Assembly (NCBI GenBank): GCA_951406725.2
Contig: OX597842.1
Span: 21,886,001 to 21,950,000, forward strand
Reading direction: 5' to 3'
Origin: Octopus vulgaris
Taxonomy: Eukaryota
Length of the DNA: 64,000 bases
Positions 1-9,000 of the stretch are shown here, one piece after another. Made by a program: the position numbers. How positions within the stretch are numbered: position 1 is the first letter of the stretch; each line of letters starts with the position of its first letter.

Positions 1-3000
1 ATAATAATAATATTTTATCTATTCTAAATAATCTTGACATTGTTCTTGACTTTACATAAAATATTCTTTACATTCTACTGTTGTTTTATTGTCATTTATT
101 TACAAGTATTATAAATTTTATTGGTAAAACATTTTTCTAGGAATGAATTACAATTTATAACATTGCTTCTATGGGAAATTATTGCTTTGCTTTATGAGTT
201 TTCACTTAAGGAGCAATCTCCAGGAAGAAATTAACTCATATATCAAGGCATTATTGAGTTTGACATTATTTTGGCACAAGGCCAGCAATTTCAGGGGAAG
301 GAGTAAGTTGAATAACCACATGGATCAGCATGTGTGCTTTTTACATGAACTGGCACAAATGCTTCTTACAGGGAGTGGCATTGCATGATATATCTATATA
401 TATAAAGCTGAAGTTGTCTGTGTGTGTGGCAGGTTTTGCAGCCTTCAACTAACACTATCTCTACCGAGACATTGTAGCGCAAGTTGACCAAAATTGAGAG
501 TATGATAAAAGAAGGCTTGCTCTTCCTTCTGTAGAAGAAAAAATTGAAATCGCACCATGTCAACAACAAAAATTATTTAGATCAGAACGGTGCTTTTTTT
601 CTATGAAAATCCCTATTTTTTACGATTCTTTGACTGCTGTGTCACCGTTTTTTGGTGTATTTCAACCAGAAACCTGTTCACTTTTAGAGAATAACAAGCT
701 ACATAATGCAAGATTTTTACTTTTCAAAAATTCCAATTCTAAAGGGTCAAAAAGAAAACAAATGCGAGCAACACTTAGCGATTCTTGTAGGATATATATA
801 TATATATAGGGTCTTCACAAGTGTCACAAGCAGGAAGGTATGCACAGGTGGACTGACTACGTCCCAGAAAACAACTTCCGTCACCTTCCAGGGGGAAAAA
901 TTAGAAGTAGTTAATAGCTTCCGTTATCTAGGTGACCAAGTCAGTAGTGAGAGTGTAACTGCTAGAATAAGAATAGCCTGGGCAAAGTTTAGGGAGCTCT
1001 TACCTCTGCTGGTGACTAAAGGCCTCTCGCTCAGAGTAAAAGGCAGACTGTATGATGCATGTGAACGAACTGCCATGCTACATGGCAGTGAAACATGGGC
1101 CGTGACTGCTGAGGACATGCGTAAGCTCATGAGGAATGAAGCCAGTATGCTCCGATGGATGTGTAATGTCAGTGTACTTACTCGACAGAGCGTTAGTTCC
1201 TTGAGAGAAATGTTGTACCTAAGAAGCATCAGTTGTGGTGTGCAAGAGAGACGATTGTGCTGGTATGGTCATGTGGCAAGAATGGATGAAGATAGGTGTG
1301 TGAGAAAGTGCCAATCCCTAGCAGTTGAGGAAACCCGTGGAAGAGGTAGACCCAGGAACACCTGGGACGAGGTGGTGAAGCACGACCTTCGAACGTTAGG
1401 TCTCACCATGGAAATGACTAGAGACCGAGACCTATGGAAGTATGCTGTGCGTGAGAAGACCCGGCAAGACTAGTGAAGCCATAACCCGTGGCCCCTACCT
1501 GGGATGTAGTCAGTCCACCTGTGCATACCTTCCTGCTTGTGACACTTGTGAAGACCTGTTGAGGCAAGTGAAAATCAAATCAAATCAAATCAAACCAAAT
1601 CAAAATAGATGAACATCAATGGAATTTGTATCCTTGAGGCACCAGTGCCGGTGGCACATAAGAAAACACTGAAAACACAACCCGAGCGTGGCCGTCTGCC
1701 AGCCTCATCTGGCACCTGTGTCGGTGGCACATAAAAAACACCATCCGAGCGTGGCCGTCTGCCAGCCTCGTCTGGCACCTGTGTCGGTGGCACATAGAAA
1801 ACACCATCCGAGCGTGGCCGTCTGCCAGCCTCGTCTGGCACCTGTGTCGGTGGCACATAAAAACACCATCCGAGCGTGGCCGTCTGCCAGCCTCGTCTGG
1901 CACCTGTGTCGGTGGCACATAAAATCACCCACTATACTCTCGGAGTGGTTGGCGTTAGGAAGGGCATCCAGCTGTAGAAACACTGCCAGATCTGACTGGC
2001 CTGGTGCAGCCTTCGGGCTCCCCAGACCCCAGTTGAACCGTCCAACCCATGCTAGCATGGAAAGCGGACGTTAAACGATGATGATGATGATGATGATGAT
2101 ATATATATATATATGAAGTTATTATGTTACTTCTCATATATATTTGAAGGCGCATGGCTCAATCGTGAGTTCAATTCCTGTCATCTTCATCACATTGAAC
2201 AATGTTAAAGGTTAAAGGGTCAAAGCGAAATCCAGACACATTTTCTCTACAAAACTACTTTAAAACGTTTTCCAATGGCTGAATGACGAAACGTATTAAT
2301 CTGGTTTCTGCCCTAAATATTCTGGTAAAGTAAGGAGGCATCTTGTACACCAGCAAATACTCAGTGAAGTGCAAGTTAATTCGTAATTAGTCAACGCCGT
2401 TGCCAAACACTGAAGAATCTTGTTTAATAATTTGGCTAATTTAGTGAAATTCAAAAGTTACTCCAATATTGATTCGGTGTAAGGAATGGAAACCTACTTA
2501 TTTCCCCTTTAATTTCTATTTACTTTCTTAAATCTCCCATACTGAAGGATTATGCTTATTAGAGCCATGCTATCCATGCCAACCTTGTACAATTACTAAC
2601 ATTTTCTCACACTAAACCATCCCTCTTACTAAAAATATCCTTCTTGTTGAGGATGGGGTTTAGTCAACTGGTACTTATTTTATCGACCCCGAAACGATGA
2701 AAGGCACAATCGACCATGACGGAATTTGAACTGGGAACTGTGGGATGACGTCAGCGGCTAGGAAGCTGACCGGAAGAGGAAGGGCGCGCATAGGGTAGGG
2801 GCGATTGCGCCTTTTTCGATCGGGGAAGTTGTGAGTGCAGGACGTGTCAGTGCTTCGACCAGTTGAGGGATAGCAGCTGCTATTTTTAGCGTTTCGGGAC
2901 AGGCCACGTGGAAGGGTACATTACCATCGGACAGATATGGGTCAACGAAGAGAAGGTGAGTGTCTTACTTCTAATCTCCCGCATTCATTACGAACGTAGC

Positions 3001-6000: not shown

Positions 6001-9000
6001 CAGAAAAATCAATTTTTTCAGACTCTCTTTTACATTCAACTTCACTCCTACGTAATTCATTTTCCATAATTTTCCTTTCTCTTGTCACAATACACAAAGG
6101 TTTTCCTTCTTCTCATATATTGCTCTTAACAAATGATTTACCAGAGATATCACAATGATATGGCTCCTCTCCTGTATGAACACGCCTGTGCTTGGTTAAG
6201 GAATCATTTCGAGAGAAAAATTTACTACAGATTTCACAGTGATATGGTATCCCTCCAGTATGAAAACGCCTGTGAGTAGCTAATACACTGCATGTAGAGA
6301 ATGATATACCACAGATATCACAGTGGTATGGCTTCTCACCTGTATGGATGCGTATGTGCTTAGTCAAGCTATCACTTTGAGAGAAGGATTTATCACAGAT
6401 ATCACAGTGATATGGTTTTTCTCCTGTATGAACATGCTTGTGCTTGGTTAAGGTATAGTTTTGAGAAAAGAATTTACCACAGATTTCACAGTGATATGGT
6501 ATCCCTCCAGTATGAAAACACCTGTGAGTAGCTAATACACTGCATGTAGAGAATGATATACCACAGATATCACAGTATGGATGCGTATGTGCTTAGTCAA
6601 GCTATCACTTTGAGAGAAGGTTTTATCACAGATATCACAGTGATATGGTTTCTCTCCTGTATGAGTACGTTCGTGAATGACTAACTTAGCTTTACATAAA
6701 ATATTCTTTACATTCTACTGTTGTCTTATTGTCATTTATTTACAAGTATTATAAATTTTATTGGTAAAACATTTTTCTAGGAATGAATTACAATTTATAA
6801 CATTGCTTCTGTGGGAAATTATTGCTTTGCTTTATGAGTTTTCCCTTTAGGAGCAATCTCCAGGAAGAAATTAACTCATATATCAAGGCATTATTGTATC
6901 TGACATTATTTTGGCACAAGGCCAGCAATTTCAGGGGAAGGAATAAGTTGAATAACCACATGGATCAGCATGTGTGCTCTTTACATGAACTGGCACAAAT
7001 GCTTCTTACAGGGAGTGGCATTGCACGATATATCTATATATATAAAGCTGAAGTTGTCTGTGTGTGTGTGGCAGGTTTTGCAGCCTTCAACTAACACAAT
7101 CTCTACCGAGACACTGTGGCGCAAGTTGACCAAAACTGAGAGTATGATAAAAGAAGGCTTGCTGTTCCTTCCGCAGAAGAAAAAATTCAAATCGCACCAT
7201 GTCAACACCAAAAATTATTTAGATCAGAAAGGTGCTTTTTTTTTCTATGAAAATCCCTATTATTTACGATTCGTTGACTGCTGTGTCGCCGTTTTTCGGT
7301 ATTTCAACCAGAAAAATGTTCACTTAAAGAGGATAACAAGCTACATAATGCAAAATTTTTACTTTTCAAAAGTTCCAATTCTAACGGGTCGAAAAGAAAA
7401 CAAACCTGAGCAACGCTGGGTGATTCTTCTACAAGATACAGTTATGGGTCAGGTCTAATTCTGATTCTTTAGAAAATTGATGACGTTTTTCATCCGTGGT
7501 CAAATTAACCAGGATACAATTATGGGTCAGATCTAATTTTGATACGCTAAAAAATTGATGACGTTTTTCTTCCATTGTCAAACTTGTCTTTCTGCTTGGC
7601 TGGTTTCCTAAACACGATACAGTTGGGGGTCTTTTCCTTAGAATCGTTGAAGCTTGGTTTTGATTGGTTTGGAATTATATGACGTCAGTGAACAGTGCAA
7701 GAATACTGACTTAACTGATATAAACCCAACAATCACTAGTTGACTAAAATTACGACAACCAAGAATAACTACTGTTGCTCCCATCGGAACACAAGGTAAA
7801 ATCTATAATGAACTCCTGCACTACACTTGACAAAACAGTAAGGAACGACTGACACCTTATAATATATTTTTCGCTTTTTCAAGAACATGGATTCTATTGA
7901 ATGTATATAGCATGGACTCTATTGAATGTATGTAACAATTATGAACTATTCCATTATACTCTTTATTATAAAAAAATTCTTTTTGATAAGGTTCGTTATT
8001 TCAAGAACCGAAACATGTAAAAATTAAAATTTAACTAATATAGTGGCATTTTCAAACTTCTTTTTTACAAATATATATATATATGTGTATATATATATAT
8101 ATATATATATATATGTATGGCCACAGCTCATTAGCTGAAACTGGAAAAATCAAAATCAAATATATATATATATATATTTGAAGCTATTATGTAACTTCTC
8201 ATATATATTTGAAGGCGCATGGCTCAATCGTGAGTTCAATTCCCGTCATCTTCTTTACATTGAACAATGTTAAAGGTTAAAGGGTCAAAGTGAAATGCAG
8301 CCACATTTTCTCCACAAAACTACTTTAAAACGTTTTCCAATGGCTGAATGACGAAACGTATTAATCTGGTTTCTTCTCTAAATATTCTGGTAAAGTAAGG
8401 ATGCATGTTGTACACCAGCAAATACTCAGTGAAGTGCAAGTTAATTCATAATTAGTCAACGCCGTTGCCAAACACTGAAGAATCTTGTTTAATAATTTGG
8501 TTAATTTAGTGAAATTCAAAAGTTACTCCAATACTGATTCGGTGTAAGGAATGGAAACCTACTTATTTCCCCTTTAATTTCTATTTACTTTCTTAAATCT
8601 CCCATACTGAAGGATTATGCTTATTAGAGCCATGCTATCCATGCCAACCGTGTACAATTACTAACATTTTCTCACACTAAACCATCCCTCTTACTAAAAA
8701 TATCCTTCTTCTAGAGGATGGGGTTTAGTCAACTGGTACTTATTTTATCGACCCGGAAACGATGAAAGGCACAATCGACCATGGTGGAATTTGAACTGAG
8801 AACTGTGGGATGACGTCAGCGGCTAGGAAGATGACCGGAAGAGGAAGGGTGCGTACAGGGTTGGGGCGATTGCGCCCTTTTCGATCGGGGAAGTTGTGAG
8901 TGCATCACGTGTCTGTTCTTCGACCAGATGAGGGACAGCAGCTGCTATTTTTAGCGTTTCGGGACGGGCCACGTGGAAGGGTACATTACCATCGGACAGA

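What the first reader, a model, noticed from the sequence alone, without database searches (positions are those of the whole stretch)
2739..7030. In-place inversion turns a ZNF gene into a predicted antisense-RNA gene
Seen: unit 1 keeps plus-strand promoter motifs, donor (2956), acceptor (5274), the start of the main exon and the distal 3' UTR. Between ~5408 and ~6693 the slot normally holding the sense array holds about 13 fingers in reverse orientation, with short CTGC and CTTT overlaps at the junctions. Inference: a transcript would carry ~1.3 kb complementary to the near-identical finger repeats of every paralog, so it could act as a cluster-wide antisense RNA (duplex, small-RNA source or editing guide). 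Known precedent in molluscs: inversion-derived antiNOS transcripts of Lymnaea.
Basis: partly seen in the sequence, partly recalled or inferred. Interest (0 to 1): 0.8.

Follow-up and report, generated by a model that had tools for sequence, protein, structure and literature searches.

The report
Inverted, disabled zinc-finger gene copy
One copy in a tandem family of zinc-finger genes has had its finger-coding block flipped and trimmed, which most likely just killed the gene; it could in principle yield an RNA antisense to its sister genes, but nothing here shows that it does.

Summary
Unit 1 (2099-7431) of a tandem C2H2 zinc-finger cluster keeps its plus-strand CpG-rich promoter-like region, exon 1, the acceptor at 5274 and the unit tail, all 93-97% identical to paralogs. 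Positions 5412-6689 hold 13 full and 2 partial fingers on the minus strand, and there are no plus-strand fingers. The junction overlaps CTGC and CTTT are confirmed.

It is not a clean in-place inversion. About 0.55 kb before the array and 0.29 kb or more after it are present in every other unit but absent from unit 1. This is a deletion-inversion-deletion with 3-4 nt junction microhomology, the pattern of end joining or template switching.

The inverted array is decaying on its own strand: two stops, a 19-nt frameshift and a lost zinc-ligand histidine.

Antisense potential is real as a sequence property. 676 of 1258 21-mers are perfectly complementary to sister arrays, with runs up to 94 nt. 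Overall identity is 70-87%, not near-identical.

No expression or read data were available, so transcription, function and assembly correctness are all untested.

The most likely reading is an ordinary birth-and-death pseudogene. It matches the Lymnaea antiNOS type in structure only.

The parts
2739..2956 (+). CpG-rich promoter-like region and exon 1. ATG at 2938; exon ends at 2956, followed by GTGAGT.
   Evidence: Mean column identity with u2 and u5 is 97%. GC is 0.54 and CpG o/e 1.06, against 0.37 and 0.60 for the whole window. The words TGACGTCA (2746), CCGGAAG (2770) and CACGTG (2905) are present. Their reading as CRE, ETS and E-box sites is recalled, not tested.
2957..5274 (+). Intron 1, ending in the acceptor TTTCAG (AG at 5273-5274).
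   Evidence: 94.5-94.7% identical to u2 and u5 over 3104-4225. The acceptor is conserved in 7 of 7 units.
4820..4996 (-). Older minus-strand zinc-finger fragment inside intron 1: linker remnant plus one finger that carries a stop.
   Evidence: Matches sense arrays on the opposite strand at 77-80%. Finger at 4874-4936 with a stop. Longer homologous copies lie in u2, u5 and u6.
5275..5372 (+). 98-nt segment: a candidate exon 2, or the start of a long main exon.
   Evidence: Open in the phase set by exon 1 (19 + 98 = 117 nt) and ending at GTATAA in 7 of 7 units. At least 8 stops in every frame follow it before the finger ORF in the 6 sense units.
5373..5411 (+). Last plus-strand bases before the left junction; CTGC overlap at 5408-5411.
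   Evidence: Alignment with six paralogs diverges after 5411.
5412..6112 (-). Inverted module B: linker (EEGKPLC...TSFD), finger 1 with His->Gln, five more fingers (one with a stop at 5597-5599) and a finger cut at the left junction.
   Evidence: The linker is 92.2-94.4% identical to six sense copies and 85.6% to u6, which has a 15-nt gap.
6113..6689 (-). Inverted module A: a finger cut at the right junction, one finger, a 19-nt deletion that shifts the frame near 6575, five fingers, the degenerate [13 protein letters not shown] unit, then a TGA stop at 6113-6115.
   Evidence: The stop is CGA in all 6 aligned paralog copies. An internal 3-finger duplication (6132-6431 against 6384-6664) is 87% identical.
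6690..7431 (+).
   Evidence: 92.8-95.4% identical to five units. There is no canonical poly(A) hexamer here or in the u2 tail, so the UTR label is not verified.

Best explanation
Unit 1 is a paralog of a tandemly duplicated C2H2 zinc-finger gene that was disabled by one complex rearrangement.

**What happened to the DNA.** A contiguous two-module stretch of finger array (1,278 bp, 5412-6689) now lies in reverse orientation. About 0.55 kb that should precede it is missing: the rest of the segment after the 98-nt exon, the first linker and half of finger 1. At least 0.29 kb that should follow it (the proximal 3' region) is also missing. Both junctions carry microhomology, 3-4 nt and 4 nt. This points to microhomology-mediated end joining of several breaks, or to replication template switching of the FoSTeS/MMBIR type. 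The template was either the unit's own array or that of a sister copy.

**What the product is.** It is a pseudogene. The array can no longer be read from the unit's promoter, and it is decaying on its own strand.

**What an RNA would look like.** If the promoter still fires, the primary transcript would carry up to 1.28 kb antisense to the sister genes' fingers. I take that as an unselected by-product.

**Shown:** the architecture, the missing segments, the microhomology, the decay and the complementarity.
**Inferred:** the repair mechanism, the timing and the absence of selected function.
For: **Architecture.** Plus-strand flanks are 93-97% identical to paralogs, and the block matches the paralog arrays only on the opposite strand.

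**Missing segments.** u2 12980-13326 has homologs in 6 of 6 sense units. u2 14776-15067 has homologs in 5 of 5 units whose 3' part lies in the window. Neither has any match in unit 1 on either strand.

**One contiguous piece.** The inverted piece shares with u3 the same internal fusion, degenerate last finger joined to the linker. It is therefore one contiguous ancestral array and not two pieces.

**Microhomology.** The chance of at least 3 nt and at least 4 nt at two random joins is about 0.0012-0.0014. The MMBIR model describes complex events with microhomology junctions (PMC2621351, search listing and abstract start).

**Decay on the minus strand.**
- TGA at 6113-6115, which is CGA in paralogs.
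- A stop at 5597-5599.
- A 19-nt deletion near 6575.
- His->Gln at a zinc ligand.
- 4 of 4 singleton changes in 76 codons are nonsynonymous.

**Age.** The unique linker of the block is 92.2-94.4% identical to six of the seven sense copies, and 85.6% to u6, which has a 15-nt gap. That is the same range as the flanks, so the piece is as old as the unit and has no twin at 99% or more in the window.

**Precedent.** Inversions of ZNF-coding sequence are reported within mouse KZFP clusters (PMC5363842, passages).
Against: - No genomic reads were available, so the assembly at both junctions is unverified.
- No RNA data were available, so 'no function' is an inference from parsimony and not a result.
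- The promoter-like region has not lost CpGs relative to u2 and u5 (18 against 18 and 19). That fits a still-unmethylated, possibly active promoter.
- 54% of 21-mers of the block are perfectly complementary to sister arrays, so trans-pairing is physically possible.
- The decay evidence is weak. Sense arrays of u4 and u5 also show frame changes, u5 has a stop in its linker, and the singleton counts are tiny.
Confidence: 0.6

Rival explanations
1. Unit 1 is a working antisense-RNA gene. Its promoter drives a transcript whose antisense finger block pairs with the mRNAs or pre-mRNAs of the sister ZNF genes. That pairing would dampen them, feed small-RNA pathways or create ADAR substrates.
For: - Promoter-like region, exon 1 and acceptor are intact, with CpG content equal to paralogs.
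- 676 of 1258 21-mers are perfectly complementary to at least one sister array, with exact runs of 37-94 nt per unit.
- Precedent: Lymnaea antiNOS-2 RNA comes from a NOS pseudogene made by internal inversion and is proposed to duplex with NOS mRNA (PMC3537157, passages).
- Sense-antisense pairing gives ADAR substrates in some metazoans (PMC9989829, passages).
Against: - No expression data of any kind.
- Promoter conservation equals intron conservation (94.5-97%), so there is no sign of selection.
- The native acceptor before the array is deleted. If 5372|5373 is a donor, the block may be spliced out or retained only in unstable RNA.
- An AATAAA at 5502 could end the RNA about 90 nt into the block.
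- There is no self-hairpin.
- Long-range identity to paralogs is only 70-87%.
- u2, u5 and u6 already carry intronic antisense finger fragments, so unit 1 is not the only possible antisense source.
- No Rfam family matches anywhere in the window.
Confidence: 0.1
2. Assembly artefact. The inverted block was placed here by a chimeric read or a mis-join in a highly repetitive cluster, and the real unit 1 has a normal sense array.
For: The cluster holds seven or more units with 93-97% identical flanks and repetitive 84-nt finger periods. This is the kind of region where assemblers fail. No reads could be examined.
Against: - The junction overlaps are only 3-4 nt, too short for an overlap-based mis-join.
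- The block is not the reverse complement of adjacent sequence, so it is not a fold-back chimera (0 inverted repeats in 2739-7431).
- The block has no near-identical source among the six arrays in the window. The best matches are 81-87%, and 94.4% in the unique linker.
- Two junctions plus two matching deletions fit one biological event.
- The window has no N.
Confidence: 0.1
3. Not in place. The inverted piece was copied from another paralog, in this cluster or elsewhere, by template switching or gene conversion, and replaced unit 1's own array.
For: - The block is a mosaic. Its module B and the fusion junction resemble u3 (81% over 1177 nt).
- Its module A best matches u5 and u6 (86.3% over 387 nt and 84.0% over 556 nt).
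- Linker identity does not single out any unit (92.2-94.4% to six copies).
Against: - There is no donor-like copy in the window.
- The three diagnostic sites in the linker agree with u2, the unit whose flanks are among the closest to unit 1. This is weak support for local origin.
- Mosaic arrays are also seen among the sense units.
Confidence: 0.15
4. The block is still a truncated coding gene on the minus strand: the 156-aa ORF at 5597-6067, MENEL... plus four fingers. It could be driven, for example, by divergent transcription from the u2 CpG-rich region about 2.1 kb away.
For: - The ATG ORF of 156 aa is on the minus strand.
- u5 has a stop just before [13 protein letters not shown], which suggests the ATG of MENEL may be the family's start codon.
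Against: - No promoter-like sequence lies upstream on the minus strand. Upstream is module A with a stop and a frameshift.
- Finger 1 of the ORF has lost a zinc ligand.
- The ORF ends in a stop inside a finger.
Confidence: 0.03

Closest known systems
Lymnaea stagnalis antiNOS pseudogenes (antiNOS-1 and antiNOS-2 RNA)
   Same: A duplicated copy of a protein-coding gene suffers an internal DNA inversion. Transcription from the retained sense part would then give an RNA with a region antisense to the parental mRNA (PMC3537157, passages; PMC2984423, passages).
   Different: - For antiNOS, transcription, the RNA duplex and regulation by conditioning are reported. Here nothing beyond DNA sequence is known.
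- The target here would be a whole set of paralogs at 70-87% identity, not one parent gene.
- Deletions flank this inversion.
- The original inversion paper (Korneev and O'Shea 2002) was seen only as a reference-list entry.
Birth-and-death pseudogenes of tandem poly-zinc-finger clusters (for example mouse KZFP clusters)
   Same: Tandem units, fast gain and loss of fingers, internal finger duplications, and pseudogenes. [quoted passage not shown]
   Different: - Pfam matched only zinc-finger-type families in the two inverted-block ORFs and the full u3 ORF that I scanned. The 98-nt exon peptide and the other units were not scanned.
- That paper saw only sense transcription of its units.
- The organism here is unidentified.
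Pseudogene-derived endo-siRNA and hairpin-RNA (hpRNA) loci
   Same: Inverted copies of gene sequence supply RNA complementary to paralogous genes. Sources: PMC2708354 and PMC10317233 (search listing and abstract starts); mouse-oocyte examples are recalled.
   Different: hpRNA loci fold on themselves. Unit 1 has no internal inverted repeat of 30 nt or more, so any double strand would have to form in trans. No small-RNA data were available.
Non-recurrent complex rearrangements by FoSTeS/MMBIR or microhomology-mediated end joining
   Same: Deletion-inversion-deletion with 3-4 nt microhomology at both joins (PMC2621351, search listing and abstract start).
   Different: The mechanism is inferred from junction anatomy alone. 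The ancestral sequence is approximated by paralogs.

Membership tests
C2H2 zinc-finger arrays (Pfam PF00096 / PF13465) | Repeated C-x2-C-x12-H-x3-4-H units with TGEKP-type linkers | tested here: met
   Minus-strand ORFs at 5597-6109 and 6113-6592 score zf-C2H2 E = 1.7e-23 and 1.5e-24, and zf-H2C2_2 E = 3.8e-32 and 5.7e-31. There are 11 pattern-complete fingers in 5412-6689.
Inversion-derived antisense pseudogene (Lymnaea antiNOS type) | Derived from a duplicated copy of a protein-coding gene | tested here: met
   Unit 1 is one of seven or more tandem units. Its flanks are 93-97% identical to paralogs.
Inversion-derived antisense pseudogene (Lymnaea antiNOS type) | Internal inversion that leaves the promoter and 5' part in the original orientation | tested here: met
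   Plus-strand homology runs up to 5411 and from 6690, with the block reversed in between. Flanking deletions are also present.
Inversion-derived antisense pseudogene (Lymnaea antiNOS type) | Sequence complementarity of the would-be transcript to parental or paralog mRNA | tested here: met
   676 of 1258 21-mers are perfectly complementary, with exact runs up to 94 nt. Long-range identity is 70-87%.
Inversion-derived antisense pseudogene (Lymnaea antiNOS type) | The locus is transcribed through the inverted part | not testable with these tools
   No RNA data. Sequence caveats are the AATAAA at 5502, the deleted native acceptor and the unresolved exon model.
Inversion-derived antisense pseudogene (Lymnaea antiNOS type) | RNA duplex with the target in vivo and a regulatory effect | not testable with these tools
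   Needs dsRNA-IP, small-RNA or editing data, and a knock-out.
Hairpin-RNA / endo-siRNA locus | Intramolecular inverted repeat within one transcription unit | tested here: not met
   0 inverted repeats of 30 nt or more in 2739-7431. By contrast u2, u5 and u6 have 11, 23 and 33 such pairs.
Microhomology-mediated complex rearrangement (MMEJ or FoSTeS/MMBIR) | Short microhomology at the breakpoint junctions | tested here: met
   TGC or CTGC at 5408-5411 and CTTT at 6690-6693. Joint chance is about 0.0012-0.0014.
Microhomology-mediated complex rearrangement (MMEJ or FoSTeS/MMBIR) | Complexity: more than one change of template or strand in one event | tested here: inconclusive
   Deletion, inversion and deletion are all present. 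One event cannot be told apart from an inversion followed by later deletions.

The most novel reading that the evidence does not exclude
Unit 1 is a young, inversion-born long non-coding RNA gene. Its 1.28-kb antisense finger block pairs in trans with the transcripts of a whole tandem family of zinc-finger genes. It would act as a family-wide rheostat, through duplex-triggered decay, small-RNA production or ADAR editing of finger codons. The older antisense finger fragments in intron 1 of u2, u5 and u6 would be earlier rounds of the same device.
Probability: 0.07. Interest if true: 0.7.

Novelty: new member of a known kind. Interest (0 to 1): 0.3.

Why it matters
If it is only a pseudogene, it is a clean, datable example of how tandem zinc-finger clusters lose members. 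The example is a microhomology-mediated flip with flanking deletions, and the breakpoints are resolved to the base.

If the antisense reading were true, one structural mutation would have turned a transcription-factor gene into a regulator of its own gene family. That would extend the single-gene Lymnaea antiNOS case to a multigene cluster. It would also give a testable link between rapid ZNF expansion and RNA-level control.

The sequence alone cannot decide between these. The tests needed are cheap: reads across two junctions and stranded RNA.

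Tried and rejected
- **Bacterial promoter and terminator scan.** It is irrelevant for a eukaryotic locus and gave chance-level hits.
- **Rfam on the whole window.** 0 matches, so there is no known RNA family in unit 1.
- **Canonical poly(A) hexamers.** None lie in the tails of unit 1 or u2, so the '3' UTR' label and the normal RNA end cannot be fixed. The only AATAAA after 5275 in unit 1 is at 5502.
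- **Crude acceptor scan.** It gave only 6003 and 7176 in unit 1 and found no good native acceptor in u2 before the finger ORF. The exon model stays open.
- **Linker identity as a way to name a donor unit.** 92.2-94.4% to six copies, which has no resolving power.
- **Synonymous against nonsynonymous singletons.** Unit 1 has 0 synonymous and 4 nonsynonymous. Other copies have 0-2 and 0-4, so the counts are too small to test constraint. In one search my fixed offsets put most sense copies one base out of frame, so their printed translations are meaningless. Only the alignment was used.
- **Cephalopod C2H2 paper PMC12513265 (find).** 0 occurrences of antisense, inversion, orientation, exon or pseudogen.
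- **Literature searches.** They listed no report of an inversion-derived antisense ZNF pseudogene. They were few and not exhaustive, and supplements are closed.
- **An independent minus-strand gene.** Rejected as unlikely because both ends of the block cut through fingers and the reading frame is broken.
- **Correction.** The correct coordinates are 6113-6115 and 5597-5599 (entry 3).

Full report
**Setting.** The window has no N. It is a cluster of tandem units that each end in a plus-strand array of C2H2 zinc fingers.
- u0: up to about 808.
- u1: 2099-7431.
- u2: 8164-15824.
- u3: 15893-20262.
- u4: 25599-32473.
- u5: 32463-40958.
- u6: 46474-54744.
- u7: 59114 to the window end.

LINE-like fragments and long TA-rich simple repeats lie between units. 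u1, u2 and u5 share a CpG-rich promoter-like region and a short first exon. u4, u6 and u7 lack a counterpart of 2380-3100. u3 starts only 56 nt before the shared acceptor. I did not take the window for human, and I compared it with no outside nucleotide collection.

- Self-BLAST of 2500-7300 and alignments of both junctions show plus-strand homology of u1 to its paralogs up to 5411 and again from 6690, at 93-97% identity.
- All long matches of 5401-6705 to the paralog finger arrays are on the opposite strand, at 70-87%. The same-strand matches outside u1 are to the short intron-1 finger fragments of u2, u5 and u6.
- A finger-pattern scan finds no plus-strand finger in u1. It finds 11 pattern-complete minus-strand fingers in 5412-6689, one with a stop. 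The other units carry 12-23 plus-strand fingers, and u7 is cut by the window end.
- With one finger whose first histidine is now glutamine, one degenerate CDISGKSF unit and two fingers cut by the junctions, this makes 13 full and 2 partial units.
- Pfam confirms zf-C2H2 at E = 1.7e-23 and 1.5e-24.
- CTGC (5408-5411) and CTTT (6690-6693) are the bases shared at the joins. Judged from other fingers of the same array, the left overlap is safe for TGC (3 nt) and the right for 4 nt.
- The chance of such overlaps at two random joins in this window is about 0.0012-0.0014.

**It is not a plain in-place inversion.**
- A two-break inversion would keep everything between the breaks, and u1 does not.
- The paralog segment that follows the left breakpoint (u2 12980-13326) has homologs in 6 of 6 sense units. 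The segment that precedes the right breakpoint (u2 14776-15067) has homologs in 5 of 5 units whose 3' part is in the window. Neither has any match in u1 on either strand.
- Read on the minus strand, the block starts in the second half of a first finger ([10 protein letters not shown]).
  - Next come one finger, a 19-nt deletion and five fingers.
  - Then follow the degenerate [13 protein letters not shown] unit and a TGA at 6113-6115.
  - A full linker (EEGKPLC...TSFD) is next, followed by finger 1 with His->Gln.
  - Five more fingers follow it, one of them with a stop at 5597-5599.
  - It ends inside a finger.
- The junction between the degenerate finger and the linker is the same, base for base, as the internal junction of u3's 490-aa two-module ORF. 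The block is therefore one contiguous piece of a u3-like two-module array.
- The event is thus a deletion of about 0.55 kb, an inversion of 1,278 bp, and a deletion of at least 0.29 kb.
- With microhomology at both joins this fits microhomology-mediated end joining or template switching of the FoSTeS/MMBIR kind (PMC2621351, search listing and abstract start only). The mechanism is inferred.
- Whether the template was u1's own array or a sister's cannot be told.
  - The unique 180-nt linker is 92.2-94.4% identical to six sense copies and 85.6% to u6, which has a 15-nt gap.
  - The finger part is a mosaic of best matches: u3 at 81% over 1177 nt, u5 at 86.3% over 387 nt and u6 at 84.0% over 556 nt.

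**Is it an assembly error?** I could not look at reads. Three points argue against an error.
- The overlaps are far too short for an overlap mis-join.
- The block is not the reverse complement of neighbouring sequence: there are 0 inverted repeats of 30 nt or more in 2739-7431.
- The block has no near-identical twin among the six arrays of the window.

A source elsewhere in the genome cannot be excluded.

**State of the parts.**
- The promoter-like region 2700-2960 has GC 0.54, CpG o/e 1.06 and 18 CpG. This compares with 18 and 19 CpG in u2 and u5, and with 0.37 and 0.60 for the whole window. It is 97% identical by column to u2 and u5.
- That is no more conserved than intron 1 (94.5-94.7%), so it says the promoter has not decayed, not that it is kept by selection.
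- On the minus strand the block has two stops, a frameshift and a lost zinc ligand.
- In 76 codons of linker and finger 1, u1 has 0 synonymous and 4 nonsynonymous singleton changes. Other copies show 0-2 and 0-4, and u5 has a stop. This fits relaxed constraint but proves nothing.

**The exon model matters and is open.** I did not build or search a joined exon model. The frame was taken from lengths, and the 98-nt segment was translated alone.
- Exon 1 gives 19 coding bases from the ATG at 2938. The segment 5275-5372 adds 98, making 117 in all. It is open in that phase in 7 of 7 units and ends exactly at GTATAA.
- At least 8 stops in each frame follow it before the finger ORF in the six sense units. 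This suggests a small exon 2 and an intron 2. The left breakpoint would then lie 36-39 nt inside that intron, and the native acceptor would be among the deleted bases.
- Against this, no convincing acceptor precedes the finger ORF in u2. u5 also has a stop just before [13 protein letters not shown], so the coding region may start at the ATG of MENEL.
Acceptor-like sites are at 6003 and 7176.
- Under the second model the block would sit in the last exon.
- In either model an AATAAA at 5502 lies about 90 nt into the block.

**Antisense potential.**
- As a property of sequence it is real. 676 of 1258 21-mers of the block are perfectly complementary to at least one sister array, with longest exact runs of 37-94 nt per unit.
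- That sharing is in the same range as the sense arrays share with each other (46-71% of 21-mers; 100% for u7, of which only 235 positions lie in the window).
- The block's plus strand has no ORF above 48 aa and no Rfam match. The u1 unit cannot fold back on itself.
- u1 is not unique in carrying antisense finger sequence. Intron 1 of u1, u2, u5 and u6 holds an older minus-strand ZNF fragment. In u2, u5 and u6 this fragment can pair with the unit's own exonic fingers, up to 257 nt at 79% and 195 nt at 89%.

**Comparison with what is known.**
- u1 meets the structural criteria of that kind: a duplicated gene, an internal inversion and complementarity. The criteria that make antiNOS interesting are transcription, duplex formation and effect, and these cannot be tested here.
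- Sense-antisense pairing does create ADAR substrates in some animals (PMC9989829, passages).
- A recent paper on cephalopod C2H2 expansions does not mention antisense, inversion or pseudogenes (PMC12513265, find).
- My searches listed no inversion-derived antisense ZNF pseudogene. They were few, and supplements were closed.

**Verdict.**
- The most likely explanation (0.6) is an ordinary casualty of birth-and-death evolution: a zinc-finger paralog disabled by a microhomology-mediated flip with flanking deletions.
- Any antisense-bearing RNA it makes would be a by-product.
- Misassembly (about 0.1) remains to be excluded with reads.
- Interest is 0.3.

Noticed in passing
window 4820-4996 (u1), 11939-12334 (u2), about 36318-36580 (u5), about 50036-50301 (u6): Intron 1 of four units holds an older minus-strand ZNF fragment: a linker plus 1 finger (with a stop) in u1 and 2 complete fingers in u2, u5 and u6. 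u4 and u7 lack it. In u2, u5 and u6 it forms inverted repeats with the unit's own exonic fingers 1.1-3.4 kb downstream, up to 257 nt at 79% and 195 nt at 89%. This is an intron-exon pairing layout of the kind ADAR uses; that comparison is recalled, not tested.
   Followed up: partly
window 15893-20262 (u3): u3 has no promoter or exon 1. It starts 56 nt before the shared acceptor, about 70 nt after the end of the u2 tail (15824). It carries an uninterrupted 490-aa ORF made of two linker-plus-finger modules (16567-18039), the same two-module layout as the inverted block of u1.
   Followed up: partly
window 2380-3100, 8445-9165, 32730-33450 against 25875-26518, 46739-47403, 59389-60055: There are two classes of unit upstream region. 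u1, u2 and u5 share the CpG-rich promoter-like region and exon 1. u4, u6 and u7 have unrelated sequence there, 93-94% identical among themselves, so their first exon is unknown.
   Followed up: partly
window 14465-14775 (u2), 31029-31053 (u4), 39296-39496 (u5), 37800-37856 (u5): Several sense arrays are also interrupted. The u2 ORF stops at 14465, with further in-frame pattern-complete fingers (starts up to 14691) and finger-like sequence beyond it, to 14775. u4 and u5 each change frame once. u5 has a stop in the linker just before [13 protein letters not shown]. Either many units are decaying or the assembly has small indel errors.
   Followed up: no
window 22249-24060 (-), 55864-57788 (-), 21239-21664 (-), 688-1473 (+): Fragments of a non-LTR retrotransposon lie between units. 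The 603-aa ORF matches RVT_1 (E = 7.8e-12) and, below the Pfam gathering cut-off (25.9 bits against 27.4), Exo_endo_phos_2 (E = 9.9e-06).
   Followed up: no
window 40845-42927 and 45110-45535: About 2 kb and 0.4 kb of TA-rich simple repeat. It reads as long YIYIYI 'ORFs' in several frames, and GC drops to 0.27-0.29.
   Followed up: no
window 5597-6067 (-): The inverted block keeps an ATG-started ORF of 156 aa on the minus strand: MENEL..., the linker and four fingers.
   Followed up: partly
window 1638-1929, with related copies near 43830-45190, 55396-55805 and 20654-20972: A short tandemly repeated element, with copies offset by about 63-73 nt, recurs between units on both strands.
   Followed up: no
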